Shown piece by piece: positions 1 through 50,550 of a stretch of 64,000 nucleotides of DNA. A program made the position numbers and the translations under genes. The notes under the pieces were generated by a model that had not been told where the DNA came from, did not search any database, and saw only the letters and a list, made by a program, of their open reading frames with translations. This stretch comes from a virus: UHGV virus genome UHGV-1430452; one strand, written 5' to 3'. Within the stretch, counting starts at the first letter, position 1. Every line of letters begins with the position of its first letter.

Positions 1-46
1 ATAATGATTATCACTGCTATTAAAATATCAATCATACTTACTCCTT

Positions 47-499
47 TCATCTATGCTGATCGCAGCACCCATTATCGTAATCGAATTCTTCTCGATCTAA
101 TGCGCAGTAATAGCCAGATATGTTATCGCAAGTCTCTTCATCATAATAGTCTTCAAAATCACAATGAACACACTCCCCGCAGCAATGTTTTTCTCTAATA
201 TCTTCAACATTCGCATACTCATCATCTCCGGTTAAACGTAATAATTCTTTAATCTCATCGTCTGTTAAATCGAGTTCACCAGAGTTAAGTCTACTTCTCA
301 AATATTCTGAAAATACAACATCCGAATTACTTGTATAATCAGAAATGATATCACCTAACTTGTCATAAGCATCCGGTCCTTCTCCATATTCCTCAGCACA
401 TTTCTTACTATTCGGAATATAGTACATACACTGATCTCCGGAAACATCACAATAGTATCTTCCTTCATCCGGATCAAATTTTGCAGCTTTACAAGACAT
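47..499 (-). CDS. Cys-rich hypothetical protein; start moved to internal Met preceded by RBS AAGGAG
   Basis: ORF 47..550 overlaps the upstream gene; the internal ATG (MSCKAAK...) has a good RBS; many CxxC pairs. Confidence 0.4.
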   Translation of the reverse strand: MSCKAAKFDPDEGRYYCDVSGDQCMYYIPNSKKCAEEYGEGPDAYDKLGDIISDYTSNSDVVFSEYLRSRLNSGELDLTDDEIKELLRLTGDDEYANVEDIREKHCCGECVHCDFEDYYDEETCDNISGYYCALDREEFDYDNGCCDQHR

Positions 500-518
500 A
501 GTTTTCTCCTTTCTACAA

Positions 519-803
519 TTAACAAAATTCAAGTCCATACCAAGTATCATTGATTTTAGTTACTTTTAATTTGTCTTCATAATACTCGTTTTTATAATTA
601 TCAATCAGCTTCTTTTTAGCTTTTGATAAATTTGTAAACCATTCCTTATCATACATATCGTAATCCCATTCCCAACTGTCTGGTTCAGTCGCTGTACCGA
701 AGCTATCAATAATAAAGCTATCCTTGCCTAAGAACCCGACAGTATCGACTAAGATACCATCGTCGTAAATACAATATACTTTTCTACCAAGCTTTGGTTT
801 CAT
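519..803 (-). CDS. hypothetical protein
   Basis: 94-aa ORF in compact minus-strand array. Confidence 0.4.
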   Translation of the reverse strand: MKPKLGRKVYCIYDDGILVDTVGFLGKDSFIIDSFGTATEPDSWEWDYDMYDKEWFTNLSKAKKKLIDNYKNEYYEDKLKVTKINDTWYGLEFC

Positions 804-3967: not shown

Positions 3968-4465
3968 TTACTCTTCCGGATGTTCCTCCGCTGCAAATCT
4001 GGATGAGAATCTGTCAATATCCTGAGTTACACACATTGACTGCAAATATGCTGCACGGAATGGTTTACCGTTAATCTCAGAATCATACGGTCTGATATCA
4101 AGATCGACACTTGCAATATCAATTTCGTCGAGCATGGATACTGTTTCTTCATCAAGTTTGACTCTATTTCTACCAGACTGAAGATATACAATAGGGCCTC
4201 TGTCGTTAAATTTGACTTTAACTGGAAGATAGATAAATGGTTCATCTCCATCTTCTCTTGGCGGTTTGATCTTTACATTCCATCCTGCTCCAAACTTATT
4301 TACATCATTCTGCAAAGCTTCTGCCATTTCTTCGTTAGGGATAATCAAAGCGAAGTTACGGTCTCCTTCTTTGTTGAATTTACCGCCTTCTCCTCTGAAG
4401 TTTCTGAAAATGATTCTTGCGTCATCGATCTGTAATACTCCTCTTGGTGCGAATGTTAATTCCAT
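3968..4465 (-). CDS. hypothetical protein; possibly an ssDNA-binding or recombination-associated protein (acidic C-terminal tail)
   Basis: 165-aa ORF next to the replication gene; acidic tail ...FAAEEHPEE; functional guess is weak. Confidence 0.4.
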   Translation of the reverse strand: MELTFAPRGVLQIDDARIIFRNFRGEGGKFNKEGDRNFALIIPNEEMAEALQNDVNKFGAGWNVKIKPPREDGDEPFIYLPVKVKFNDRGPIVYLQSGRNRVKLDEETVSMLDEIDIASVDLDIRPYDSEINGKPFRAAYLQSMCVTQDIDRFSSRFAAEEHPEE

Positions 4466-4655: not shown

Positions 4656-4946
4656 CTATCGTAAAGATTTTGGGACAAGGCTTTTGATAATCTTTTTCTG
4701 ATGCTCGTCCAGATCGTGATATAGAGTGAAACCCGTTGCCCCATTATACTCATCGCCAAACTGTTTGTAGTACATAGATTGTTTCCATAACTCCGGATAC
4801 TCTTTTTTGTACTTTGCGAGTTCTTTTGCTTTCTTGTCATACTGTTTATCCGAAATTATATTATTATCTAACTCGTAATAAATATATGAATGAAGTATGA
4901 TATATCTTTGCAAGTAATCTATGTATTCGAGGGTTGTTAGTTCCAT
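4656..4946 (-). CDS. hypothetical protein
   Basis: 96-aa ORF overlapping the 3' end of the replication gene by a few nt. Confidence 0.4.
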   Translation of the reverse strand: MELTTLEYIDYLQRYIILHSYIYYELDNNIISDKQYDKKAKELAKYKKEYPELWKQSMYYKQFGDEYNGATGFTLYHDLDEHQKKIIKSLVPKSLR

Positions 4947-7900
4947 GGCAGCTCTACATCTTCATCATCGAATGGAATTTCCTCAGGAGATCCTTCCGGT
5001 ATGTTCATGAAGTCTGGTAAATGAGAATCTCTAAAAGGAGGTTCATGCCGATCTGAAGCATCCCAAGGCGGAGTACCAACATATGGATCGTCTGATATGA
5101 ACCACTCAGCGTCTCCGTATTGACCAATAGTTTCAAGAGCATCATCCACAAGCTTTCGATAATATGAACGATCAATATTTTCTTCATTTCCCGGAGACAT
5201 CATTAACTCGGATTCAAGCCAACGGAAACCAGTTGTTCCTGTAGCTGCATAATATTTACCGTTCTGTTCTCGCATCAATAGTCCTCCACCCTTTCCAGGC
5301 TTAACCGGACAAAATTGCCCAACTTTACCTACGAAATGATAGTCATGACCTTCAGCTATTAAATCGTTTAATCTTCGACACTCACTTTCGAAAGTTGTGT
5401 CCGATAACTTACCTTTCCTGTACTTATCTTCAAGTTTGGATAGTTCTTTTTCATACTCGGATACATCTGGAAGTTTTTCGTTCATATCCAAATATAAAGC
5501 AGATTTTACTGAGAATGCTTCGCACATATCTTTCAACTCAATTGGTTCTTTACTGAACAGTGTTTTAAATACATACGGAACTGCAAACTGTTTTCCAGTA
5601 GCTGTCCATTCTCCGGCATTCTTTCCATCTTTAAACCTAGCCACGTACACAGCATCATTTACTAAACAGAATTTTTCAAAGTTAGCCTCTGTTTCAAATG
5701 TATATCCGTATTCTTTACCGAATTTGGTTACGAAATCAATAATATCAGGAGTAGCATCGGGTATCTTTATGGAATCTGTCTTGATATGACAAACAGTAAA
5801 TCCTCGTTTCTGAACTTCTCTTTTCAATAATGTCATGAAGAGAGCTCCTCTTTTGGCAACAATGTTATCCTTATTTCTAGGATCTCTAAATTCATTTACG
5901 AAGCCAGCTGATGTCAAACCATAAATGGAATTGATAACAATCTTAAGTGCCTGCGCTAAATCAGCAGCCTGTTCTTCATTTAAGTATGGTTTCAACGCTC
6001 CACCTAATAATTGTCCAGCTGTTTCAAAGTCTTTATGCTTAATTGCAACACGAGCTTTTACAATATCCTCAAACCGTTTTGTATATTCTGGTCCAAATAG
6101 ACATTCGAATATAATACTGTGAGGATGCTGAGAAGCAATGTCTCCATCCCATACATTACCGTAATGCCCAGGTTCAGAGTAAACCCGACCGCCTTCTCCA
6201 ATGGCTTCGCCTAAATATGTTGATTTACCAAACTCAAAAGTATAGCCTTTAAAGAATGGAAGAATGCTATAACCTTCTGGAAGCTTTTCGCCAGGAACGT
6301 AAGATCGATATAATGGAAGACCCTCAGAATCAAATACTCTGAAATCATAATCATCTCCGAATTTAATTCTATATTCATCATAACGATCTGAGCTAACCGG
6401 TTCCGCCAAGTATCTATAGTTGAATACATTCTGCGGTTTTTTATTATTTCCAAATATAATTCTTTTAGAAAGAGTATTTGTCGTATCATTAACTGTAACG
6501 TTTGTAATATCATGTAAGAGTTTTACAAGATCAACCTGAATCTGTCTAGCAACAAAGTCTGCTTTTCTTGCATTGAATACAGCTTCCGTCGCAATGACAT
6601 CATTATCGCAATACTCAGCAACCTTTGCCCATAATTCTTCTGGAACTGGTTGATCCCAAGGAAGACCAAGCTCTTGATGATGAATACCCAGTTCAATCTC
6701 CCATTTCTTTAAACTCTGTTTCACAGTTGACATATCATATACATCAATGTAACCAAGATTATATGCCTCACCAAACATGCCATTATCACGGCTTCCCTTT
6801 GGAGCATTAATAATTCTTTGAGATAACTTATATATTTCCTCATTTGTGTATCCCATAAGTCTAGCATAAATGATATGTCTGTCGTATTTACGTCCATTAA
6901 AATCAACAAGTTTAAACTTTAGAAGATTTTCTATTTCTGCTGGTGTAGGATTAATTAATCTAACTACTGTTTTTCCTTCTCCAGCAAACTTATAGTTTAC
7001 CAAAAATAAATTTGGGAATACCTCACAATCATAGAATACAAGATCGTCAGTATCACCCTCATTACTTGTCTCTGAAGCCTCTTCACTCTTAAACGCCATC
7101 TGATTAACTAACTTCAAACACTCATCAGCCTGGTTACTACTACTCGCCGCCAAAGCAAATACAGCATTTTTCATATCAGACACATCATATCCAATACCAC
7201 TCTCATAAGCCTCATCCAAAAGTTTCTTAATCATTTGAATACTTGGAGCTGTGTTACCCATAATTTCTTTATTCAGATGTTTCTTAAGAACGGATCTCAA
7301 ATATTTCTCATTCTTAATACCATCAAAGTTAATCACATTTTTCACCTCTTTCAACGGAAGACCTGAGCTAATTGTACGAATAACAAGATTGACACACTTA
7401 GTAAGTTTTCTTCTAAGAGATGTTTTACCGGTAAATACCTTAATCTCGATATCCTCATCAAATATACGACTTAATTCACTCACATCACCGTTATAAATAT
7501 AATGAAGATGAATACCTCCACCACTTTTGCTTAACTCAGCATATGTTGGAGGCCATTTACTAGCTGCTTCAAGATTCTTCTCGAAACATTTATTACCATT
7601 CTCGTCCTTAATATCAAAGTCAATAACTACATGATTTTCAGGGACCTTGACGTAATGAAGTTTTGATGTGTCAAGTTCTGATAGGGTAGTTGAAACTTCA
7701 TCCCATGGCTTCGTCGGAGTTTCTTTTGAAGTAGCATATTGAGCTGGACAATCAGAACATTCTTTATCAAAAATAGACTCCTGTTCTTCAAATATAAGCC
7801 AGCTCTCAGTTTTCTCATCTCCAATAGGTTTCTCTGCTTTAACCTTTTTCTTCCCACCAATAGAGTCTTCGAAAATATCAGTCTTAAAACCGTCGTAATA

Positions 7901-9163
7901 ACTCAGCAGCTTACTTCCATCTTCTTTCTCCACCTTCTCATCAAATTCCAAAAAATAGTTTCTCAACTCGTCTTTGAATTTTGTCTTAGAAAATGGATAC
8001 GGCACTTTTGCTTCCTCACAGTAGTTTTTATACATCTCCCATGCTGCTTTTAGCGTAGTACCATCTTCTTTCTTGAAGACACTGAATGAATCACATACGA
8101 AGTTATAAAAGTCATTAGAAGCCATAAGCATGTCCTTCGGAGCGTAAGTATCGTAATACTCTGGATCTTCTTTAAAGACTTGTAAACAATGATATGCGAT
8201 TGCTCCCAACTCAAAATCAACCTGTTTGGTCAATCTACGATATTCTCGAATCGGTATCTTGTTTCCAGTAGGACGAACGTCAATCAAACGCCTTAGTAAA
8301 CCAGACTTAGCATCAGTGATCTTAACAGGTGTGTTTGTACCCATAAATAAAAAACATTTGAATCTTGTTTCATATTGTCCTTTAAATTTTTCATTCATGG
8401 TCATTATCTCGTGTGAAATCACCGAGTTTAAGCGCGTATTATCTTCGATTTTTGATAAATCACCATCATGTTGTATCGCTACAAGAGGGTTATTCTTAAA
8501 CGGTTCCAGAGCGAAAACATTATTCGGATTACCCAAAGCTTTTGCGTCAAAAGAACAACAATATCCTTCAAATAATTTCTCGATAATATTTATGATAGTT
8601 GATTTACCAGTACCACCAGCTCCGTAAAGCACCAGGAACTTTTGAAGTATTTTTGATTCCCCAGATACAACGGAGCCGATAGCCCATTCTATTTTACGTC
8701 GTTCTTCTTCGGAATATAGAGTACCGATGAGTTTATCCCATGCAGAAATATCGCCAGGTTCGAGAGGATACGGGAGTCTCTTGCTTGCGAAATTCTCTCT
8801 GCTTAATTCTGTGTTTGAAAATATAAGTTCATCATCGAGTACAGCAAAGTTATCACGCATCTGTTTCTGACAATATTTATGGAACTTATCGATTGAGCCA
8901 CTGTCAGCATCCCACATATACTTAATTACAGGAGTACCTTCAAGACGTCCTTCATTTTCAGCGACATATCTATCAAGTTCTCTATCTACAAGACGGGTTA
9001 CATCGTCTTCATCTGTACTCCACATCTTTCGATCTTCATCCCAGATAGCGTAAAAGTCCCTACCTCGAATCATGAGATCTTTAGATTTCAACATTTTGAA
9101 CTTAGGAGAAACATCAACACTGCTTTTATTCGTCTTCGTTGATACTGTCATGAAGTCCAACAT
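4937..9163 (-). CDS. Multidomain replication protein: SF3/D5-like helicase P-loop, primase-polymerase-like domain and family-B DNA polymerase (exonuclease + polymerase motifs)
   Basis: 1408 aa; Walker A VLYGAGGTGKST; prim-pol-like VIDFDIKD and SGGGIHLHY; Exo I YDCEVF, Exo II YCDNDVIAT; PolB motif B KIVINSIYG; motif C IKTDSI. Confidence 0.85.
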   Translation of the reverse strand: MLDFMTVSTKTNKSSVDVSPKFKMLKSKDLMIRGRDFYAIWDEDRKMWSTDEDDVTRLVDRELDRYVAENEGRLEGTPVIKYMWDADSGSIDKFHKYCQKQMRDNFAVLDDELIFSNTELSRENFASKRLPYPLEPGDISAWDKLIGTLYSEEERRKIEWAIGSVVSGESKILQKFLVLYGAGGTGKSTIINIIEKLFEGYCCSFDAKALGNPNNVFALEPFKNNPLVAIQHDGDLSKIEDNTRLNSVISHEIMTMNEKFKGQYETRFKCFLFMGTNTPVKITDAKSGLLRRLIDVRPTGNKIPIREYRRLTKQVDFELGAIAYHCLQVFKEDPEYYDTYAPKDMLMASNDFYNFVCDSFSVFKKEDGTTLKAAWEMYKNYCEEAKVPYPFSKTKFKDELRNYFLEFDEKVEKEDGSKLLSYYDGFKTDIFEDSIGGKKKVKAEKPIGDEKTESWLIFEEQESIFDKECSDCPAQYATSKETPTKPWDEVSTTLSELDTSKLHYVKVPENHVVIDFDIKDENGNKCFEKNLEAASKWPPTYAELSKSGGGIHLHYIYNGDVSELSRIFDEDIEIKVFTGKTSLRRKLTKCVNLVIRTISSGLPLKEVKNVINFDGIKNEKYLRSVLKKHLNKEIMGNTAPSIQMIKKLLDEAYESGIGYDVSDMKNAVFALAASSSNQADECLKLVNQMAFKSEEASETSNEGDTDDLVFYDCEVFPNLFLVNYKFAGEGKTVVRLINPTPAEIENLLKFKLVDFNGRKYDRHIIYARLMGYTNEEIYKLSQRIINAPKGSRDNGMFGEAYNLGYIDVYDMSTVKQSLKKWEIELGIHHQELGLPWDQPVPEELWAKVAEYCDNDVIATEAVFNARKADFVARQIQVDLVKLLHDITNVTVNDTTNTLSKRIIFGNNKKPQNVFNYRYLAEPVSSDRYDEYRIKFGDDYDFRVFDSEGLPLYRSYVPGEKLPEGYSILPFFKGYTFEFGKSTYLGEAIGEGGRVYSEPGHYGNVWDGDIASQHPHSIIFECLFGPEYTKRFEDIVKARVAIKHKDFETAGQLLGGALKPYLNEEQAADLAQALKIVINSIYGLTSAGFVNEFRDPRNKDNIVAKRGALFMTLLKREVQKRGFTVCHIKTDSIKIPDATPDIIDFVTKFGKEYGYTFETEANFEKFCLVNDAVYVARFKDGKNAGEWTATGKQFAVPYVFKTLFSKEPIELKDMCEAFSVKSALYLDMNEKLPDVSEYEKELSKLEDKYRKGKLSDTTFESECRRLNDLIAEGHDYHFVGKVGQFCPVKPGKGGGLLMREQNGKYYAATGTTGFRWLESELMMSPGNEENIDRSYYRKLVDDALETIGQYGDAEWFISDDPYVGTPPWDASDRHEPPFRDSHLPDFMNIPEGSPEEIPFDDEDVELPWN

Positions 9164-11373: not shown

Positions 11374-12312
11374 TCAAATCATGTTGAGAATATCCCCATC
11401 CACATTGAAATCAAGAAGAATAGTTCTCTCATAACCGTTCACGAAGTTACGATTTGCCTCGTTGTAAGTGTTATAGATTCCGAAATCTACGAAATTATCA
11501 CCTACTGGATGTTTCTCGTCATAAATCCATCCAACAATCTGACCTGCCTGTGTACGCGGGATTCCGAGCATATCATATACTTCATTCAGGAACAGATGAC
11601 CTTTCGTTTTCAACATGTCATTTGCATAACGCTGCTGATCTTTAAGGAACATTAGATTGAATTCAGGATCTTTAGTCCATCCTGTACATCCATCATCGAA
11701 GAATTTAGCATAATCGCTGTAACTGTCGAGAGTTGCTACATTTGCTGTTTTCTTAACAGTAGTTTCTGTACCATCTTCATTTACAACAGTCTCTTCGATT
11801 TCTTTTGCTTTGATGTTGTACTTCAGTTCTTTATCAAGCTCTTCACCAAATCTCTCAATAACACGACCACGATATTCCTTGAAGCCTTTGTCAATAGTTG
11901 CATAAGCGGCTGCAAGTGCTAAGTTACGTTTACGAAGAATATGATGACCACTAAGAATAGCAGCGATAGAAACTGTTCCAAGGATTACTGCTGGAGCATA
12001 AAGTTTTGCTACCTTTACGGCTGTTTGAGTATACATGATAGTTAAATCTTTCTTACCATCTTCTTCTGTGTACTCTTTACCTTCTGGAACCATATCTGGA
12101 TTTTCCATAAATTCATGAATTTTCTCGATTTTTTCTTTTGGCTCAGCGAGCACCTCATCGAGTTTAGTAGTTGCTTTACATGCCATTACAGCAGAGCCAA
12201 CTACACCAACAATACCTGCGCCAACCAAGATTTCAGGGCTATGCTTTTTAAATTTAAAACCTACACGATGGAGGCTTCTAGTTACTGTGTTCATAATTTC
12301 TAATTTTGCCAT
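11374..12312 (-). CDS. Membrane protein, paralog family member 1 (two hydrophobic helices near N-terminus)
   Basis: 312 aa; shares SPEIL-hydrophobic-VKAT N-terminus and C-terminal G..GW region with 14387..15214 and 16675..17451. Confidence 0.55.
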   Translation of the reverse strand: MAKLEIMNTVTRSLHRVGFKFKKHSPEILVGAGIVGVVGSAVMACKATTKLDEVLAEPKEKIEKIHEFMENPDMVPEGKEYTEEDGKKDLTIMYTQTAVKVAKLYAPAVILGTVSIAAILSGHHILRKRNLALAAAYATIDKGFKEYRGRVIERFGEELDKELKYNIKAKEIEETVVNEDGTETTVKKTANVATLDSYSDYAKFFDDGCTGWTKDPEFNLMFLKDQQRYANDMLKTKGHLFLNEVYDMLGIPRTQAGQIVGWIYDEKHPVGDNFVDFGIYNTYNEANRNFVNGYERTILLDFNVDGDILNMI

Positions 12313-12314
12313 GA

Positions 12315-12761
12315 TTATTTACTCTCCTTTTCTAATTCTTTACAAAATTCCATTAAACTTTTACCGCGAATAAGAATATCGTTTGGTGTTAAAACAATAT
12401 CAGGTTCCTTGCTCTTATTCGGATTCTCAACATATTCAATAAGCCTATTGAGATACCACTGAGCTTTCTTTAAGTCCTCAATGCCGTTTTTCTTTTTCCA
12501 GCGACATAAATACTTCATTGCATTACCTGTACAAAATGCTTCTAATCCGTTAAGACCATCACAAAAGGCCTCGATAACGTCGATAGTTTCGAGACCTGAT
12601 TTTGACTGATAATGATCCGGATGATTCACCATATCGTTTTTGGCAACCCATTGTGTCGGAATACAAAAAGGATCATCGCTCGTTATACAGTGTTTACAAG
12701 CTTCCGATCCCATTGTACGACCACAATTGTCACAATCATATTTGCTTTTTGTTATACTCAT
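12315..12761 (-). CDS. DUF3310-like phage protein with N-terminal zinc-ribbon
   Basis: 148 aa; CDNCG...CKHC then HPDHY...IDVIEAF...GNAMKYLCRW...DLKKAQWYL pattern, recalled from memory as typical of DUF3310. Confidence 0.55.
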   Translation of the reverse strand: MSITKSKYDCDNCGRTMGSEACKHCITSDDPFCIPTQWVAKNDMVNHPDHYQSKSGLETIDVIEAFCDGLNGLEAFCTGNAMKYLCRWKKKNGIEDLKKAQWYLNRLIEYVENPNKSKEPDIVLTPNDILIRGKSLMEFCKELEKESK

Positions 12762-14386: not shown

Positions 14387-15214
14387 TTAATAGTAGCTAT
14401 CGAAACCATATTCCGGAGGCATCAGATGATCAATAACAATACACGGTTCATTATCTTCCGTAATTTGAGCACTATATCTCACATCGATTTTGCCTTTATC
14501 GATTCTCCAACCGATGCTATTACCAACTTCGGTATGCTTAAGACCAATTTCGTCATAGAAATCATTCAGAGAAATATACATCTCGTTACCGTTGATCATT
14601 CTCTCATTAAGAGTAAGAACAGCATTTTTAATCTTGTCGATATCCGATCTGAAATATCTGTCGGAATGACTGTCATAACACAACGTGTTACCTTTACCTG
14701 TCATGATAATCTGAGTGTCTGCAACCGGATGTTCTTCAACTTGCTTCTTAGCGACTTTATCTCTGATGTTATTTTCCTTCTTCTCTCCGATAGTCTCTAC
14801 CACTTTCTCTCTGTAGTCAGACAGTGCTGTTGTAGATAACTGATATGCTGTTGCCAATGCTGCGTTACGTCTTACATGTACGGAATTAGCACCGATAAGA
14901 CAAGCGACTGACGCAATGCCAGTGATAGCTGCTGGAATATAAGGTTTCCAAGCTGCTTTTACTGTTTCGACAGGTGTGAGATTTAAAGCGTTTCTTTCGT
15001 CTTCTTCTGTGAAAATACCGCCTTCATGAGCTTCTTTCTCTTTAAACTTCTTCTCTTCCTCGATTAACTCCATAGCTTTTGGTGTTGCTTTTACTGCAAG
15101 CACAACAGTAGATATCATACCTGCGATACCAATGCCAGTAAGAATTTCCGGACTGCGTTTTTTCATTACATATTTTGCAGTGTTTAAAAATTTTGTTACA
15201 TTTGGTTTGTTCAT
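14387..15214 (-). CDS. Membrane protein, paralog family member 2
   Basis: 275 aa; paralog of 11374..12312 and 16675..17451. Confidence 0.55.
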   Translation of the reverse strand: MNKPNVTKFLNTAKYVMKKRSPEILTGIGIAGMISTVVLAVKATPKAMELIEEEKKFKEKEAHEGGIFTEEDERNALNLTPVETVKAAWKPYIPAAITGIASVACLIGANSVHVRRNAALATAYQLSTTALSDYREKVVETIGEKKENNIRDKVAKKQVEEHPVADTQIIMTGKGNTLCYDSHSDRYFRSDIDKIKNAVLTLNERMINGNEMYISLNDFYDEIGLKHTEVGNSIGWRIDKGKIDVRYSAQITEDNEPCIVIDHLMPPEYGFDSYY

Positions 15215-15303: not shown

Positions 15304-15375
15304 GAAACAGTGTAGGACTCGAACCCACAACCTACAGATATAAGTCTGTTGCTCTACCAATTGAGCTAACTGTTT
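15304..15375 (-). tRNA. Probable tRNA; anticodon region reads CUUAUA (possibly UAU, Ile/AUA) but the loop looks one nt short in my manual fold
   Basis: Acceptor stem AAACAGT/ACTGTTT, D-arm GCTC/GAGC, T-arm GTGGG-TTCGAGT-CCTAC all pair; anticodon stem ACAGA/TCTGT. Confidence 0.55.
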
Positions 15376-15709
15376 CTTCTCATAATAGCGCTTGTAAATT
15401 TCGCGAATATAGATCTTCAGAAACAAAAAAGAAGAACCCCGAAGGATTCTCCTAGACTTTCTTCTGAAGCTCAGAAACTGCTTTCTTCAACTCTTCAAAC
15501 TCCTTTTCTTTTTTCTGATCTGATAATGCACCTGCTATAGCCATAATACCTGTTACTACAACACCTGCATATTTTCCGACAGACTTCAGAAGCGGATTAT
15601 TGATAATACCTTTGAATTTCATTTTTCTCGTCTCCTTTCTTCATTCCATTAAAGGAAATGTTTTTGTCGCGATACCGGTTTCGCTATATCAAAATATCAT
15701 CGTTTATCG

Positions 15710-16478: not shown

Positions 16479-16694
16479 TTAGCGAGTGTAATGGATATGC
16501 TCATTGTTTAATTCGTCGAGATGTTTAATAAAATCTAAATATCTTTTATTTCGTCTATTCTCCACAAAGTTTATAACTAACCAAGCAATCCCTACGATAG
16601 GCAAGCCAACGAATACTAATAGAAATAGTAAGCATGTAATCATAGAAACAAGCGTATTCATAAATCTTCTCCTTTCAATACTCTTCGTAATCAA
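16479..16694 (-). CDS. small membrane protein
   Basis: 71 aa; hydrophobic CLLFLLVFVGLPIVGIAWLV. Confidence 0.4.
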   Translation of the reverse strand: MITKSIERRRFMNTLVSMITCLLFLLVFVGLPIVGIAWLVINFVENRRNKRYLDFIKHLDELNNEHIHYTR

Positions 16695-17451
16695 TGAACG
16701 GCTCTGTGAAATCTACAATATAACATTCAATACCGTCGTCCATTTCTACTTTTGTATGGTGGAAATATAGCCAACCATCCCAGTACATTTCATACATCTG
16801 AGCTGCGGACCAACCCATAAATTCACCGTAATCCTGTCGATCAATCTCTAGTAAATCGTAATAATCGTTTAAAGATGCACCACCGGATTGAGATAGCATT
16901 TTATTAATCTCATACTCTGCTCTCAATTGAGTTTCTTTCGTCACACGGTAATAACGTTTGGAATATTCATCGTAGAATAGTGTTTTGCCATCCTCGTATT
17001 CGTCGTCATATTCTTCTTTGTCTTCTTCCTCGTAATGGTCTTTTGCTACAGCAGCACGAATGAGTTTGTCTCCGTCTTCACCATATAACTTTTTAACTTT
17101 GTTTTTGTACTCTTTGTGAGTTTGGTCTAGTAAGGCATAAGCAGATGCGATGGCTGCTTGGGAATGTTTGTTTAATAGATTCGCGCCAAATATGCAAGCT
17201 AGGGTTCCTGTTCCAATCAATAAGGAAGGAATATATGTTGGTCCTGCTACTCGAATAGTCTCCCATTTTGTTAATTCATCTCCTTTCTCTTCTTCAGCTA
17301 GTTCAATAAGTTCCATTGCTTTCGGAGTAGCTTTAACCGCCATTACAGCTGTACCTACCACTCCGGCAGCTCCTAATACTGTTAATATAGTAGAGCTGTT
17401 TTTCTTTACGAATCTTTTCGAAACTGTTAGTAAGTCATTCATTTCCAGCAC
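16675..17451 (-). CDS. Membrane protein, paralog family member 3
   Basis: 258 aa; paralog of 11374..12312 and 14387..15214. Confidence 0.55.
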   Translation of the reverse strand: MLEMNDLLTVSKRFVKKNSSTILTVLGAAGVVGTAVMAVKATPKAMELIELAEEEKGDELTKWETIRVAGPTYIPSLLIGTGTLACIFGANLLNKHSQAAIASAYALLDQTHKEYKNKVKKLYGEDGDKLIRAAVAKDHYEEEDKEEYDDEYEDGKTLFYDEYSKRYYRVTKETQLRAEYEINKMLSQSGGASLNDYYDLLEIDRQDYGEFMGWSAAQMYEMYWDGWLYFHHTKVEMDDGIECYIVDFTEPFIDYEEY

Positions 17452-23397: not shown

Positions 23398-23994
23398 ATG
23401 ACAATAGGACAAAAAATAAAAGAATTACGCAATCAACTTAATATGTCGGTGGATGATCTTGCTGTGAAACTGGGTAAGAACCGTGCGACTATCTACCGCT
23501 ATGAACGAGGAGATATCGAGAACCTCCCTCTCGATGTACTAGAACCATTAGCAAATGCTCTTGAGACCACACCTGGTTATTTAATGGGATGGGAAGAAAC
23601 TACGAAAAAGAAAGAGCCTTCAATTATCGATGAAGTTACCATGGGTGACGTTTTTAAAGCGTTACGTCTAGGAAGTAATTTATCGATAGAGGAATTTTCG
23701 CATGAGATTGGATTATCTGCCCAAGACATAAGCAATTATGAAGCAGGAAAGACTCCTATACCTGTAAATATAATTAATCTTGTTGCTGATTTCTTTGGCA
23801 TATCAATAGCGGAAATAGTTAAGGCACACAAAAACAGCGAAAATAGAACGCCTTCTGGTTTCGAAATGAAAAAGGAACGATTTGAACGTTTTAAAGTTTG
23901 GAATAAAGAGTTTGGACGAATACATTTTACTGATGAAGAAATCAATAAAATAATGGAATATACAAGGTTCTTACTTAGCCAAAGAAGACAGTAA
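23398..23994 (+). CDS. XRE-family (cI-like) repressor with two HTH domains
   Basis: 198 aa; IKELRNQLNMSVDDLAVKLGKNRATIYRYERG and a second HTH EEFSHEIGLSAQDISNYEAGK; RBS AAAGGAG. Confidence 0.8.
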   Translation: MTIGQKIKELRNQLNMSVDDLAVKLGKNRATIYRYERGDIENLPLDVLEPLANALETTPGYLMGWEETTKKKEPSIIDEVTMGDVFKALRLGSNLSIEEFSHEIGLSAQDISNYEAGKTPIPVNIINLVADFFGISIAEIVKAHKNSENRTPSGFEMKKERFERFKVWNKEFGRIHFTDEEINKIMEYTRFLLSQRRQ

Positions 23995-24070
23995 GTCTAC
24001 ATAGGTTTACTCTATTTAAAGGAGGTGATGCCTGAATTCAGTTCATCGTAGAATTTACATCAAAGGAAAG

Positions 24071-25657
24071 GTGGAACCAATGACAACGTTTGATATGAAC
24101 AACGCTGTAGACAATGCGTTCGGTATGGACGTATATGCTATCTATCTTCGGAAAAGTCGAGCCGATGTAGAAGCAGAAAAACTTGGAGAAGGAGAAACAC
24201 TAGCAAGGCATAGAAAGATACTAACAGAACTTGCTGCTAGAAAAGGATTGTATATCGGTAAGATTTACGAGGAAATTGTATCTGGTGAAACAATCGAAGC
24301 TAGACCTGAAATACAAAAACTGATAGAAGATTGTTATAAAGGGAAATATAGAGGAATCCTAATAGTAGAAGTTACTCGTCTATCTCGTGGTAATCAAGGA
24401 GACGCTCAAAAAATACTCGACTGTCTCAAATATTCGAATAGAAACAATGGTGTATTAGTTATCACTCCTACTAAGACTTATGACGTTGCACACAGCCAAG
24501 AAGACGAAGAATATATGGAGTTTGAATTGTTTATGTCTCGTCGAGAATATAAGATGATTCAAAAGCGTATGGATCGTGGCCGTAAACAAGCAGTCGTAGA
24601 AGGAAACTTCATGGGTAGTTACCGTCCCTATGGATATGACATCTTAAAAACCAAGACCGGACGAACACTTATACCGAATGAAGATGAAGCTCCTATCGTG
24701 AAAATGATTTACGAATGGACAGTTAACGATAATTTATCTCCTTTCAAGATAGCTGAGCGTTTAACTAATATGGGTGTTCCTACTTATTATGGTGAGAAGG
24801 ATTGGTCTAAAGAAACAGTTAAAACCATTTTGACGAATCAGACATACATGGGTAAAGTTCGTTGGAATGATCGAATGACTGTTAAGACTATGGTCGACGG
24901 AGAACTTAAAGCTACACGACCTCGTTCAAATCATTCCGATCACTTCATGCTATATGATGGAAAACATATGAAACACGCACTCGTCGACGAAGAAACATTC
25001 AAAGCAGCCTCCTCTCGCTTTCATAACGATAGGACAAGATCAAATCTAAAACTTGTTAATCCTCTTGCAGGACTTCTATTTTGTAAGAAATGTGGTAAAT
25101 CTATGGGTTATCAATCATATAGACATAAGAAAAACGGACCAATGGATCGATACAATCATAGACAGTCTGCTAATGGATGCAAGGTTAAGTCAGCAGTTGC
25201 TGAGGATGTTATAAAAGCTGTTATACATGCTTTGAAACTTTATATAGAAGATTTCGAATTTAAGTTAGACAACACTCCAGATGTTGACGAAAATTCAATC
25301 AATACGCAGCTCGAAGCTTTACAAAAAGAAATACGAAAATCCGAACGAAAACTTGCTAAGCTATTCGATTCTTGGGAAGATGAGAAGATAACAGATAATG
25401 AATTTGTTCAAAGGAAAGCCGTCCATAATCAGAAGATAGAAAATATAAAGAGGCAAATGGAAGAACTCGAATATTCGATACCAGAAAGAGAAGAATATGA
25501 GGATAAAATAATATTGCTGTCTGAAGCACTTGTCGCTATCACAGACGAATCGCTTGACGCAGATATTAAGAACGAGTATCTTAAAAGAATCATTGATAGA
25601 ATAGAGTTTAGTAGAGAGAATAACTCAGAGTTTATACTAGATATAGACTTATGCTAA
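24071..25657 (+). CDS. Large serine recombinase (integrase)
   Basis: 528 aa; resolvase-like N-terminus with catalytic-Ser context YLRKSRADVE; C-terminal zinc-ribbon CKKCGKS and coiled-coil; true start may be the ATG at 24080. Confidence 0.88.
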   Translation: MEPMTTFDMNNAVDNAFGMDVYAIYLRKSRADVEAEKLGEGETLARHRKILTELAARKGLYIGKIYEEIVSGETIEARPEIQKLIEDCYKGKYRGILIVEVTRLSRGNQGDAQKILDCLKYSNRNNGVLVITPTKTYDVAHSQEDEEYMEFELFMSRREYKMIQKRMDRGRKQAVVEGNFMGSYRPYGYDILKTKTGRTLIPNEDEAPIVKMIYEWTVNDNLSPFKIAERLTNMGVPTYYGEKDWSKETVKTILTNQTYMGKVRWNDRMTVKTMVDGELKATRPRSNHSDHFMLYDGKHMKHALVDEETFKAASSRFHNDRTRSNLKLVNPLAGLLFCKKCGKSMGYQSYRHKKNGPMDRYNHRQSANGCKVKSAVAEDVIKAVIHALKLYIEDFEFKLDNTPDVDENSINTQLEALQKEIRKSERKLAKLFDSWEDEKITDNEFVQRKAVHNQKIENIKRQMEELEYSIPEREEYEDKIILLSEALVAITDESLDADIKNEYLKRIIDRIEFSRENNSEFILDIDLC

Positions 25658-48831: not shown

Positions 48832-50550
48832 TTACAGTAGCTCGTTAACTCGATCCTGAATTTTCTGAATCATGTTGTGATCGTATCCAGCTTTTGCGAG
48901 GGCATTAATTCGTGCATCTCCATTACCGTATTTTCCGGCAATGACATCACGGGCTACATTATCAATCACTATCTGATTTACTTTCTTCTGCACAGTGTCT
49001 GGATTATAACCAGCTTTCTTGAGAGCAGACACACGAGCATCACCATTACCCCATTTTCCAGCTAAAACCTCTTTAGCTACTTCATCGATAGATTTAGTAG
49101 GTTTTGCAGGAGCTTTAAGTAGTTCATTCACTTTCTTCTGTACAGTGTCTGGATTATAACCAGCTTTCTTGAGAGCAGACACACGAGCATCACCATTACC
49201 CCATTTTCCAGCTAAAACCTCTTTAGCTACTTCATCGATAGATTTAGTAGGTTTTGCAGGAGCTTTAAGTAGTTCATTCACTTTCTTCTGTACAGTGTCT
49301 GGATTATAACCAGCTTTCTTGAGAGCAGACACACGAGCATCACCATTACCCCATTTACCGGCGATTACTTCTTTAGCAATTTCATCGATAGATTTGGTCG
49401 GTTTTGGCGTAGATGTAGGTTTAGATGTTGGTGCTGGTGTGGAAGAACTTTTCGCATATTTTGGTCTAGCAAAACCACGAATCATACCCCAGCCAACCGG
49501 AATGGTACGTCTTGCTACTGCTTCTCCTCTGTTACCTTCAATCGCTGTGATTTGTCCGTTTGAAACAGATTCCACATACCCGATATGATCAGAATATCCG
49601 TCGTTTGGCTGAGTCTTATCATCCCAGTTATAAACAATTACATCACCAGGTTTCGGAGTAATGGTGCCGTCCTCGACCCAAATGCCTTTCTGCTTAAAAA
49701 TCTTAATATGTTCCTCACAACCAACTTCTGTACCGATGAGATCGACTGCTCCGGATTTGATAGCTGCTGCTGATACTGTACAATCACACCATTCATCATT
49801 AGGTTTAATAGCGTATCCGCGAGCCAAAGGTTTGTGAGAATTATAGATGTTAAGAATCTCAATATATTTACCGTTAGCTTCAGAATAACCGAGCCAACTT
49901 CTCATAACATTAAGAACGTCCTGTGCTGTTACACCCAATTCCGTATCCTCCTGTTTTCCGTAAAAATAGTTCATGTCGACTTTACCTTTAATACCGCCTA
50001 CAGTTCCGGAACTCGTATACTGATGAACCAAACAACCGTAATCTGCTTTTCCGTTATAATCAGCGAGCCAGAATTTGTACTGTTTAATCAGATCATGATT
50101 ATACCAATTTCGATAGTAGTCGATATTTGCGTAGATTCCAGCTTTGTATCCCTGAGATTCTACGTACTCACAAAAGATTCTTGTAAAGTTATTACATTCA
50201 TTTTTACCAAGTCTCACACCTTTTGCAGCTGCTTTCTTGACTGTGTCATATTCGAAATCTGCGAAGATGATTGTGTTTTTATCAAGACCAGCTTTTCTAA
50301 CAACATCAACACAGAATTTTGCTTCGTCAAGTGCGCCCTGTTCGTTTAAGGCATAAATAAAATGGTAAGTTCCTATAATCGGAATCTTGTTGTTTTTACA
50401 CCCATTGACATACTCATAGAATTTTGAATCTACTGTCTTCCTGTAAGAAGATCTAAGAATCGCGAACTCTATTCCGGAGGACTTGACTTTAGAAAAATCT
50501 ACATCTCCCTGCCAATAGCTGATATCAATTCCTTTCTTCACAATCATCAT
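48832..50550 (-). CDS. Endolysin: GH25 muramidase + Cys/His peptidase domain (CHAP or NlpC/P60-like) + tandem CW_7 cell-wall-binding repeats
   Basis: 572 aa; GH25-like GIDISYWQG; Cys...His block; repeated IDEVAKEVLAGKWGNGDARVSALKKAGYNPDTVQKKVNELL. Confidence 0.88.
   Translation of the reverse strand: MMIVKKGIDISYWQGDVDFSKVKSSGIEFAILRSSYRKTVDSKFYEYVNGCKNNKIPIIGTYHFIYALNEQGALDEAKFCVDVVRKAGLDKNTIIFADFEYDTVKKAAAKGVRLGKNECNNFTRIFCEYVESQGYKAGIYANIDYYRNWYNHDLIKQYKFWLADYNGKADYGCLVHQYTSSGTVGGIKGKVDMNYFYGKQEDTELGVTAQDVLNVMRSWLGYSEANGKYIEILNIYNSHKPLARGYAIKPNDEWCDCTVSAAAIKSGAVDLIGTEVGCEEHIKIFKQKGIWVEDGTITPKPGDVIVYNWDDKTQPNDGYSDHIGYVESVSNGQITAIEGNRGEAVARRTIPVGWGMIRGFARPKYAKSSSTPAPTSKPTSTPKPTKSIDEIAKEVIAGKWGNGDARVSALKKAGYNPDTVQKKVNELLKAPAKPTKSIDEVAKEVLAGKWGNGDARVSALKKAGYNPDTVQKKVNELLKAPAKPTKSIDEVAKEVLAGKWGNGDARVSALKKAGYNPDTVQKKVNQIVIDNVARDVIAGKYGNGDARINALAKAGYDHNMIQKIQDRVNELL
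48981..49430. repeat. Three near-identical 150-bp tandem repeats (plus one divergent copy upstream) encoding the CW_7 repeats
   Basis: CTTTCTTCTG(C/T)ACAGTGTCTGGATTATAACCAGCTTTCTTGAGAGCAGACACACGAGCATCACC units at about 48981, 49132 and 49282. Confidence 0.8.

What the first reader, a model, noticed from the sequence alone, without database searches (positions are those of the whole stretch)
4937..9163. Single 1408-aa replication protein combining SF3 helicase, primase-polymerase-like and family-B DNA polymerase motifs
One ORF carries a Walker A P-loop (VLYGAGGTGKST, D5/P4-type helicase context), a prim-pol-like signature (VIDFDIKD, SGGGIHLHY), exonuclease motifs (DCE; YCDNDVIAT) and PolB motifs B (KIVINSIYG) and C (KTDSI). 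The helicase-like block lies N-terminal to the prim-pol-like block, which is an unusual order. No separate primase or helicase gene is seen in the window.
Basis: partly seen in the sequence, partly recalled or inferred. Interest (0 to 1): 0.6.

Follow-up and report, generated by a model that had tools for sequence, protein, structure and literature searches.

The report
Known four-in-one phage DNA replicase
This gene is an intact gut-phage copy of the "four-in-one" replicase (helicase, primase, proofreading exonuclease and DNA polymerase in one protein) that was predicted in 2016 and biochemically characterised in 2025, so it is real but not new.

Summary
One 1408-aa ORF lies at 4937-9163, on the minus strand, and every quoted motif is present.

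It aligns end to end with GP55 of Lactococcus phage 1706 (39% identity, E=0). Kazlauskas et al. described GP55 in 2016 as an SF3 helicase-AEP primase-PolB fusion. [quoted passage not shown]

Five of the six GP55 residues whose mutation abolished an activity are identical in the window protein. They, and the main helicase, AEP, exonuclease and PolB motif residues, are invariant across 116 diverse family representatives. The sixth GP55 residue, F667, is a leucine here.

Structure models support each domain:
- Family B polymerase: Foldseek E=1e-14.

The architecture recurs in 252 phage genomes, so an assembly chimera is excluded.

The window is a temperate siphovirus-like phage, with relatives in gut Bacillota genomes. 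No other helicase or primase lies in the window. Relatives carry a separate helicase (PHROG 'DNA helicase' family phrog_62 in L004) further downstream, beyond the window edge.

The one undescribed feature I found is a disordered acidic C-terminal tail ending in IPF/LPW motifs that resembles the SSB C-terminal tip.

Verdict: new member of a known, characterised family; low interest.

The parts
4937..9163 (-). Whole replicase gene, 1408 aa plus stop. It is an orthologue of GP55 of Lactococcus phage 1706.
   Evidence: ORF list and translation. PHROG phrog_4210 'DNA polymerase' matches residues 2-1361 at E=0. BLASTP to GP55 gives 39% identity over 7-1374 vs 11-1315, E=0.
8819..9163 (-). N-terminal domain, residues about 1-115, beta-rich with helices. 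It precedes the helicase core. Function unassigned; possibly a collar or oligomerisation region.
   Evidence: Model pLDDT is about 80-90. Part of it aligns to the pre-helicase region of the SaPI5 primase-helicase, profile 42-140 vs chain 380-477. Streptomyces phage Rainydai has a stand-alone 165-aa gene annotated DNA primase/polymerase that matches part of the query, apparently the N-terminal part.
7874..8761 (-). D5-type SF3 helicase core plus C-terminal winged-helix-like region, residues about 135-430. Key residues: Walker A K187 (nt 8597-8632), Walker B-like D233/D235, N277 in FMGTN (probable sensor 1, by position) and R291/R292 (probable arginine finger, by position).
7805..7870 (-). Disordered, variable-length, charged linker between helicase and primase, residues 432-453.
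   Evidence: pLDDT below 50. The region is gappy and length-variable in alignment A2.
7349..7786 (-). PriS-like archaeo-eukaryotic primase (AEP) domain, residues about 460-605. Motif I is D515-x-D517 (nt 7604-7627). Motif II is SGGGIHLH with H552 (nt 7499-7525). E573 is the putative motif III acidic residue. R584/R585 are also conserved.
7094..7321 (-). Alpha-helical domain (aHD) of four helices, residues about 615-690. It is required for priming in GP55.
   Evidence: The model shows helices 619-630, 638-654, 662-673 and 679-687, matching the 'two pairs of parallel helices' described for GP55. Y659, equivalent to the essential GP55 Y655, is conserved. Position 671, equivalent to the essential GP55 F667, is Leu here but Phe in at least 90% of the family.
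6464..7051 (-). PolB 3'-5' exonuclease subdomain, residues about 705-900. ExoI is D712/E714 (nt 7022-7030). ExoII is N756..Y760-D761 (nt 6881-6901). ExoIII is Y851..D855 (nt 6587-6613).
   Evidence: Motif positions. D712, E714, Y760, D761, Y851 and D855 are invariant in 116 representatives; N756 is conserved in at least 90%. The GP55 D712A/E714A mutant loses exonuclease activity. The PolB fold is confirmed.
6257..6400 (-). Clade-specific 48-aa insertion, residues 922-969 (a helix plus beta-hairpin), between the exonuclease subdomain and motif A. It is absent from GP55 and from actinophage homologues.
   Evidence: Gap in the BLASTP alignment to GP55. Present in the gut-phage homologues but not in 1706 or Perkunas. 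Confidently folded, pLDDT 85-96.
5054..6256 (-). PolB polymerase subdomains (palm, fingers, thumb), residues about 970-1370. Motif A has D1008 (nt 6116-6142). Motif B is K1074-x3-N1078-S-x-Y1081-G1082 (nt 5918-5944). Motif C is the variant H1126-x-K-T-D1130-S (nt 5768-5782).
   Evidence: Foldseek E=1.4e-14, probability 1.0, to 9N/KOD PolB, with Pol alpha and E. coli Pol II also in the top 50. Profile hit to Pol II at 3.8e-6. phrog_1252 DNA polymerase at 5.6e-44. The listed residues are invariant. GP55 D949A, equivalent to window D1008, abolishes polymerase activity.
4940..5053 (-). Disordered acidic C-terminal tail, residues 1371-1408, ending ...PEEIPFDDEDVELPWN. It carries two copies of an acidic-[ILV]-P-[FW] motif that resembles the SSB C-terminal tip.
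   Evidence: pLDDT below 50. The motif occurs in 37 of 54 close homologues. With a slightly stricter pattern it occurs in 26 of 116 diverse representatives, against 0.6 expected from shuffled tails and 2 of 3290 other 45-aa windows. It is absent in GP55 and Perkunas.
3968..4465 (-). Phage ssDNA-binding protein gene, 165 aa, two genes downstream. It is the probable accessory partner of the replicase.
   Evidence: Pfam PF24083 Phage_ssDNA_bind at 5e-42. PHROG phrog_4787 at 6.8e-51. Phage 1706 (orf66) and Perkunas (gene 70, annotated SSB) carry visibly similar proteins a few kb downstream of the replicase; their family membership was not tested.

Best explanation
The ORF encodes an orthologue of GP55 of Lactococcus phage 1706, a self-contained 'four-in-one' phage replicase.

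Shown for GP55 and inferred here from homology and conserved active sites:
1. The N-terminal D5-type SF3 helicase unwinds the duplex. In GP55 it uses UTP/dTTP, mediates dimerisation and provides strand displacement.
2. The central PriS-like AEP domain, together with the adjacent four-helix aHD, synthesises short RNA primers de novo on ssDNA.
3. The C-terminal family B polymerase extends those primers with dNTPs. Its 3'-5' exonuclease proofreads.
4. Primase and polymerase can cooperate in trans, so a dimer may act as a minimal replisome.

In this window the enzyme belongs to a temperate siphovirus-like phage whose relatives lie in gut Bacillota genomes. It probably works with the ssDNA-binding protein encoded two genes downstream.

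Shown here: the ORF, its domain folds, end-to-end homology to GP55, and identity at five of the six GP55 residues whose mutation abolished an activity.

Inferred: the activities themselves, nucleotide preference, oligomeric state, and any role of the C-terminal tail.
For: - End-to-end BLASTP match to GP55: 39% identity, E=0. Full-length match to phrog_4210.
- GP55 residues proven essential map to identical window residues: K189 to K187, D509 to D517, D712/E714 to D712/E714, D949 to D1008, Y655 to Y659.
- These residues are invariant, or at least 90% conserved for Y659, across 116 representatives that are 38-63% identical to the window protein. So are the remaining helicase, AEP, exonuclease and PolB motif residues.
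- AlphaFold models: residues 690-1408 at pLDDT 85.4; residues 1-700 at pLDDT 76.9, with disordered linkers at 432-453 and 606-614.
- The architecture was described in PMC4889955 and characterised in PMC12205980.
- The fusion is full length in 252 phage records and in all 120 top homologues.
- The AEP+aHD module occurs almost only inside proteins of 1200-1520 aa, at the same position.
Against: - No biochemistry exists for this protein, and identity to GP55 is only 39%.
- One aHD residue essential in GP55 (F667) is Leu671 here, while at least 90% of the family has Phe.
- The protein has clade-specific insertions (residues 922-969 and about 1228-1275) and a C-terminal tail that GP55 lacks. Kinetics, nucleotide preference, primase site preference and partners may therefore differ.
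- PolB motif C is KTDS rather than the canonical DTDS. This also holds for active GP55.
- GP55 was a dimer, not the hexamer expected of SF3 helicases, so the helicase mechanism is unresolved even for the reference enzyme.
Confidence: 0.92

Rival explanations
1. It is a GP55-family protein in which one activity has decayed. The most likely candidate is priming, because of the Phe-to-Leu change in the aHD. The phage would then depend on a host or other phage primase, and the AEP domain would serve only as a DNA-binding or scaffold module.
For: Window L671 replaces the Phe that is at least 90% conserved and whose mutation in GP55 (F667) abolished primer synthesis.
Against: Leu is a conservative substitution and is shared by the closest relatives, which carry Phe two residues earlier, at F669. 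All AEP catalytic residues (D515, D517, H552, E573, R584, R585) and aHD Y659 are intact. No other primase was found in the window.
Confidence: 0.05
2. The PolB domain starts DNA synthesis by itself, either primer-independent like piPolB or protein-primed like phi29. The AEP domain would then have another role, such as translesion or restart prim-pol.
For: The GP55 authors note phi29-like motifs. Motif C is non-canonical (KTDS).
Against: In GP55 the AEP mutant D509A loses de novo synthesis, and the PolB-only fragment cannot prime. The best structural matches are primer-dependent PolBs (archaeal PolB, Pol alpha, Pol II), with no phi29 chain in the top 50. No terminal-protein gene was recognised in the window.
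Confidence: 0.02
3. The long ORF is an artefact: an assembly chimera, or a sequencing frameshift that fuses separate helicase-primase and polymerase genes.
For: The sequence is metagenome-derived. One relative (L020) does have the gene in two pieces.
Against: The same continuous architecture is found in 252 cultured-phage and virome records, in all 120 listed homologues from JGI, ENA, NCBI and Logan assemblies (out of at least 8000), and in a cultured isolate genome, Lachnospira hominis NSJ-43. The L020 split is caused by an inserted HNH homing-endonuclease ORF, not by a domain boundary. Composition is uniform across the gene.
Confidence: 0.01

Closest known systems
GP55 of Lactococcus phage 1706 (Fremauxvirus), the 'four-in-one replicase' (Zhang et al., NAR 2025, PMC12205980; predicted by Kazlauskas et al., NAR 2016, PMC4889955)
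   Same: Same domain order: N-terminal domain, SF3 helicase, PriS-like AEP, aHD, PolB exonuclease and polymerase. The alignment is end to end at 39% identity. K187, D517, D712/E714, D1008 and Y659 match the GP55 residues shown essential. Both have the variant motif C, KTDS. Both genomes carry a similar ssDNA-binding protein gene downstream of the replicase and a kinase gene in the early region.
   Different: The window protein is 91 aa longer. It has a 48-aa folded insertion at 922-969, a helical-hairpin insertion at about 1228-1275, and a disordered acidic IPF/LPW tail. GP55 F667 is Leu671 here. The host is a temperate gut-Bacillota phage rather than a virulent lactococcal phage.
'DNA primase/polymerase' of SEA-PHAGES actinobacteriophages (Arthrobacter, Gordonia, Streptomyces, Curtobacterium, Microbacterium phages)
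   Same: Full-length homologues at 43-49% identity over at least 96% of the query, with the same four-domain layout.
   Different: They lack the 922-969 insertion and the acidic IPF tail (checked in Perkunas). Their hosts are high-GC. None has been characterised biochemically.
D5/E5-type and SaPI/NrS-1-type primase-helicases (vaccinia D5, mpox E5, ASFV C962R, SaPI5 Rep, NrS-1 gp28)
   Different: In those proteins the AEP is N-terminal to the helicase, and no PolB is fused. Here the order is reversed and a proofreading PolB follows. The AEP accessory module is the aHD, not a PriL or helix-bundle domain.
Pas55 of Actinoplanes phage phiAsp2 (SF3 helicase-DnaG primase-PolA fusion)
   Same: It is the only other helicase-primase-polymerase triple fusion noted by Kazlauskas et al..
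   Different: It is built from non-homologous primase (DnaG/TOPRIM) and polymerase (family A) modules. It was not examined here.
PolB of E. coli Seuratvirus/Nonagvirus phages and Achromobacter phages (phrog_1252)
   Same: These are the nearest stand-alone polymerases to the PolB region, about 24% identity over residues 709-1175.
   Different: They have no fused helicase or AEP domain.

Membership tests
GP55-type four-in-one replicase | End-to-end sequence homology to GP55 | tested here: met
   BLASTP gives 39% identity over 7-1374 vs 11-1315, E=0. phrog_4210 matches full length.
GP55-type four-in-one replicase | Domain order: SF3 helicase, then PriS-like AEP, then aHD, then PolB (exonuclease plus polymerase) | tested here: met
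   Model domain boundaries. Fold matches per domain.
GP55-type four-in-one replicase | Helicase Walker A lysine (GP55 K189; K189A inactive) | tested here: met
   K187 lies in GAGGTGKST. It is invariant in 116 representatives.
GP55-type four-in-one replicase | AEP catalytic aspartate (GP55 D509; D509A lacks primase) | tested here: met
   D517 lies in VIDFDIKD. D515 and D517 are invariant.
GP55-type four-in-one replicase | aHD residues essential for priming (GP55 Y655 and F667) | tested here: inconclusive
   Y659 is conserved. The F667 equivalent is L671, while the family has Phe in at least 90% of members; F669 lies two residues upstream.
GP55-type four-in-one replicase | ExoI D/E pair (GP55 D712/E714) and polymerase motif A Asp (GP55 D949) | tested here: met
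   D712/E714 and D1008 are present and invariant.
GP55-type four-in-one replicase | Helicase, primase, exonuclease and polymerase activities; UTP/dTTP-dependent unwinding; dimer | not testable with these tools
   This requires purified protein. It is known only for GP55.
Family B DNA polymerase | ExoI-III motifs and polymerase motifs A (Dx2SxxPx), B (Kx3NSxYG) and C (xTDS) on a PolB fold | tested here: met
   Motifs located. Foldseek E=1e-14 to PolB structures. Profile hit to E. coli Pol II at 3.8e-6. Motif C is KTDS, so the first Asp of the canonical DTDS is Lys.
Archaeo-eukaryotic primase (AEP / prim-pol) superfamily | Motif I (DxD), motif II (sGxGxH) and a motif III acidic residue, on an AEP fold | tested here: met
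SF3 (D5/P4-type) helicase | Walker A and B, motif C Asn (sensor 1), arginine finger, and a D5-like fold with a C-terminal winged helix | tested here: met
Canonical primase-helicase (AEP N-terminal to SF3, as in D5 or ORF904) | Primase domain lies N-terminal to the helicase | tested here: not met
   The helicase covers residues 135-430 and the AEP covers 460-605. The reversed order is a known rarity; the primase is N-terminal in 94% of fusions.
piPolB / protein-primed PolB | PolB that initiates without a separate primase active site (piPolB), or with a terminal protein and TPR1/TPR2 insertions (phi29-like) | not tested
   No direct comparison with piPolB or phi29 sequences was run. Indirectly, the top 50 structural hits are primer-dependent PolBs, and GP55 needs its AEP for de novo synthesis.

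The most novel reading that the evidence does not exclude
The disordered acidic C-terminal tail ends in one or two [DE]-rich [ILV]-P-[FW] motifs (window: ...PEEIPFDDEDVELPWN; some homologues end exactly in ...DEEIPF). It may be a functional mimic of the bacterial SSB C-terminal tip (DDDIPF).

The tail could tether the replicase to pockets that bind the SSB C-terminus, either on host replication and repair proteins or on the phage ssDNA-binding protein. Alternatively, by analogy with the acidic aromatic-ended tails of T7 gp4 and gp2.5, it could dock onto a basic patch of the partner subunit in the dimer. Either role would add a replisome-organising element that reference enzyme GP55 lacks.
Probability: 0.3. 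Interest if true: 0.45.

Novelty: new member of a known kind. Interest (0 to 1): 0.2.

Why it matters
The finding adds little conceptually. The helicase-AEP-PolB fusion was catalogued in 2016, and its four activities were demonstrated in 2025.

Its value is confirmatory:
- The family is very large. At least 8000 clusters at 90% identity matched the full query, though some may share only one domain. The primase module alone has 464 clusters at 50% identity.
- All four active sites are under strict conservation.
- The family is widespread in temperate phages of human-gut Bacillota.

The clade-specific insertions and the SSB-tip-like tail could guide engineering of single-enzyme DNA amplification reagents. 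They could also guide studies of how these one-protein replisomes connect to SSB or host factors.

Tried and rejected
- Megablast of the gene against GenBank phages found nothing. The phage itself is not deposited there.
- An exact look-up of the encoding contig for P0001 failed. An exact 38-mer search of IMG/VR found nothing.
- The metagenome scan found two contigs. L004 is 100% identical to window 1-790 and then diverges, so it is a mosaic relative. It cannot prove what lies left of the window.
- Local BLAST of L003 and L004 was not possible because the files were not exposed to the sandbox.
- The full-length protein exceeded the 1200-aa limit of the representative search, so I queried the AEP+aHD module instead.
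- I tested whether the IPF tail sits on the phage SSB in phages whose replicase lacks it. This is not supported: the 1706 orf66 and Perkunas gp70 tails have no such motif.
- Rfam found no annotated group I intron around the homing endonuclease in L020.
- I considered a chimera or frameshift artefact and piPolB-like self-priming, and rejected both (see rival explanations).

Full report
**Observation.** Coordinates 4937-9163 hold one uninterrupted ORF of 1408 codons, ATG-started, with the stop codon included. A GGAGG ribosome-binding site ends 11 nt upstream of the ATG.
- Walker A, VLYGAGGTGKST: residues 178-189
- VIDFDIKD: 513-520
- SGGGIHLHY: 547-555
- DCE: 712-714
- YCDNDVIAT: 851-859
- KIVINSIYG: 1074-1082
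- KTDSI: 1128-1132

PolB motif A (DIASQHPHS, 1008-1016) and ExoII (FNGRKYD, 755-761) are also present. Base composition is uniform across the gene.

**Sequence-level identification.** Pfam recognises only DUF5906, the D5-type helicase core, at 7.4e-13. This explains why the protein is labelled 'hypothetical' in its source.

PHROGs is more informative:
- phrog_4210 'DNA polymerase' matches residues 2-1361 at E=0.
- phrog_1252 (DNA polymerase) matches 690-1179 at 5.6e-44.
- Several primase-helicase PHROGs match 120-430.
- phrog_3022 (primase) matches 482-566 at 5e-4.

tblastn against GenBank phages finds 323 records, and 252 of them cover at least 80% of the protein. These are Arthrobacter, Gordonia, Streptomyces, Curtobacterium and Microbacterium phages at 43-49% identity, annotated 'DNA primase/polymerase'. 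Lactococcus phages 1706, P078 and P118 match at 35-39%. The best hit is a human-faecal phage at 64%.

The metagenome protein search hit its ceiling of 8000 clusters. All 120 listed are 1331-1441 aa, cover at least 96% of the query, and come from JGI, ENA, NCBI and Logan assemblies. The ORF is therefore not a chimera or a frameshift fusion.

[quoted passage not shown] They note that the primase is N-terminal to the helicase in 94% of fusions.

Zhang, Lu, Zhu and Huang (NAR 2025, PMC12205980) purified GP55 and showed the following:
- DNA polymerase activity, abolished by D949A.
- 3'-5' exonuclease activity, abolished by D712A/E714A.
- UTP/dTTP-dependent helicase activity, abolished by K189A.
- RNA primase activity, abolished by D509A. 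It needs a new four-helix 'aHD', in which Y655 and F667 are essential.
- De novo replication of ssM13 DNA.
- Dimer formation.
- Cooperation of primase and polymerase in trans.

**Mapping onto the window protein.** BLASTP against GP55 gives 39% identity over residues 7-1374 vs 11-1315, E=0. The essential GP55 residues correspond as follows:

| GP55 | Window |
|---|---|
| K189 | K187 |
| D507/D509 | D515/D517 |
| D712/E714 | D712/E714 |
| D949 | D1008 |
| Y655 | Y659 |
| F667 | L671 |

I aligned 116 diverse family representatives, which are 38-63% identical to the window protein. The strictly invariant columns are:
- Helicase: G186, K187, N277, R292.
- AEP: D515, D517, H552, E573, R584, R585.
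- Exonuclease: D712, E714, Y760, D761, Y851, D855.
- Polymerase: D1008, K1074, N1078, Y1081, G1082, H1126, D1130.

So all four active sites are under strong purifying selection. The only deviation is L671. At least 90% of the family has Phe there, and the closest relatives share the Leu together with a Phe two residues earlier.

**Structure.** The AlphaFold2 model of residues 690-1408 has pLDDT 85.4 and pTM 0.76. Foldseek matches it to archaeal PolB (9N, KOD) at E about 1e-14 with probability 1.0, and also to Pol alpha and E. coli Pol II. These are primer-dependent family B enzymes.

The model of residues 1-700 has pLDDT 76.9. It shows:
- an N-terminal domain (1-115);
- the helicase plus a winged-helix-like region (135-430);
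- a disordered linker (432-453);
- the AEP (460-605);
- a short linker (606-614);
- four helices forming the aHD (619-687).

A profile of the 116 sequences hits 7ola at 5e-17 and E. coli Pol II at 3.8e-6. It also gives a conditional E=1.8e-5 alignment of the DFD and SGxGlH motifs to the SaPI5 AEP motifs.

**Distribution of the primase module.** I searched residues 440-700 against 1.84 billion cluster representatives. There were 464 hits at E of 1e-3 or better and 226 at 1e-30 or better. Nearly all of the top 150 are 1200-1520 aa with the module at about residues 440-700; the shorter ones look like fragments. The PriS-like+aHD module therefore appears essentially confined to this fusion family.

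**Genomic context.** The window is a temperate siphovirus-like phage:
- serine integrase (24071-25657, plus strand) and repressor (23398-23994, plus strand);
- a 2515-aa tape measure protein, major tail protein, portal and large terminase.

Around the replicase lie an ssDNA-binding protein (3968-4465, PF24083 at 5e-42), a DUF3310 nucleotide-kinase-like gene (12315-12761), DUF2958, and three DUF6353 paralogues.

No other helicase or primase was detected among the 60 window ORFs scanned. However, 1706 (orf67) and Perkunas (gene 88) carry a separate annotated DNA helicase 5-8 kb downstream. Contig L004, which is 100% identical to window 1-790, carries a phrog_62 helicase about 9 kb further downstream. 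Any equivalent gene here would lie outside the window.

Relatives occur in gut Bacillota genomes. One is a 286-kb contig of the isolate Lachnospira hominis NSJ-43, which is consistent with a prophage.

**Differences from GP55.**
- A confidently folded 48-aa insertion at 922-969.
- A helical hairpin at about 1228-1275.
- A disordered acidic tail (1371-1408) ending PEEIPFDDEDVELPWN.

The acidic-[ILV]P[FW] tail motif occurs in 37 of 54 close homologues. With a slightly stricter pattern it occurs in 26 of 116 diverse representatives, against 0.6 expected from shuffled tails. Several proteins end exactly in ...IPF or ...LPF.

The motif resembles the SSB C-terminal tip DDDIPF, which is a known hub for protein interactions (PMC5872125 abstract). 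It also resembles the acidic, aromatic-ended tails of T7 gp4 and gp2.5; that comparison rests on my own knowledge. A function for the tail is inference only. A complementary distribution on the phage SSBs was not seen.

**Verdict.** The feature is an uncharacterised orthologue of a published and biochemically characterised enzyme family: a new member of a known kind, of low interest. The SSB-tip-like tail is the one lead that goes beyond the literature I read.

Noticed in passing
window 4940-5053 (-), residues 1371-1408 of the replicase: The disordered acidic C-terminal tail carries two acidic-[ILV]P[FW] motifs (PEEIPF and VELPW) resembling the SSB C-terminal tip DDDIPF. The motif is strongly enriched in the family: 26 of 116 diverse representatives against 0.6 expected by shuffling. 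It is absent from the characterised GP55.
   Followed up: partly
window 11374-12312, 14387-15214 and 16675-17451 (all -): Three paralogous DUF6353 (phrog_2152) genes of unknown function lie upstream of the replicase. Phage 1706 and Perkunas also have hypothetical genes of about 270-370 aa just upstream of their replicases; I did not check whether they belong to the same family.
   Followed up: partly
window 15304-15375 (-): This tRNA gene scores 62 bits in Rfam, but its anticodon loop appears to have 6 nt (CUUAUA) between a 5-bp ACAGA/UCUGU stem. ARAGORN cannot assign an anticodon. Relative L020 also has a tRNA gene with the same Rfam score (62 bits) just downstream of its replicase (15377-15449); its sequence was not compared. 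It could be a tRNA-Ile(UAU)-like species or a non-standard decoder.
   Followed up: partly
L020 10001-14780 (Clostridium sp. MAG CAZMAZ010000005.1): In this relative the replicase gene is split into a 908-aa ORF and a 396-aa ORF by a 283-aa HNH_3 / I-HmuI-NUMOD homing-endonuclease ORF. The insertion lies between ExoIII and motif A. It is probably an intron-borne or free-standing homing endonuclease. Rfam found no intron family there.
   Followed up: partly
window 59267-62630 (-): Four tandem paralogous genes of 190, 378, 352 and 181 aa match overlapping PHROG families (phrog_7502, phrog_32444); two of them have an N-terminal DUF7211 hit. They lie immediately upstream of the large terminase. 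Function unknown.
   Followed up: no
window 1-790 vs L004 12488-13275 (OHES01000478.1): The sequences are 100% identical for about 790 bp and then diverge abruptly, a mosaic junction between related phages. L004 carries a phrog_62 DNA helicase (428 aa) about 9 kb beyond the left edge of the window.
   Followed up: partly
window 48832-50550 (-): A 572-aa endolysin gene sits inside the tail-gene block, between the major tail protein and tail-assembly-region genes and the 2515-aa tape measure gene. This is an unusual position for a lysis gene. The tape measure protein itself has an endolysin-like segment at residues 443-534.
   Followed up: no
L005 498-995 and 3277-7299 (Streptomyces phage Rainydai): Besides the full-length replicase (gene 57), a separate 165-aa gene (gene 53) is annotated DNA primase/polymerase and matches part of the query, apparently the N-terminal part. 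This suggests the N-terminal region can exist as a stand-alone module.
   Followed up: no
window 23398-25657 (+): The only clear plus-strand genes are a repressor-like HTH regulator and a serine integrase, and the GC skew flips at this point. The element is therefore a temperate phage or prophage.
   Followed up: partly
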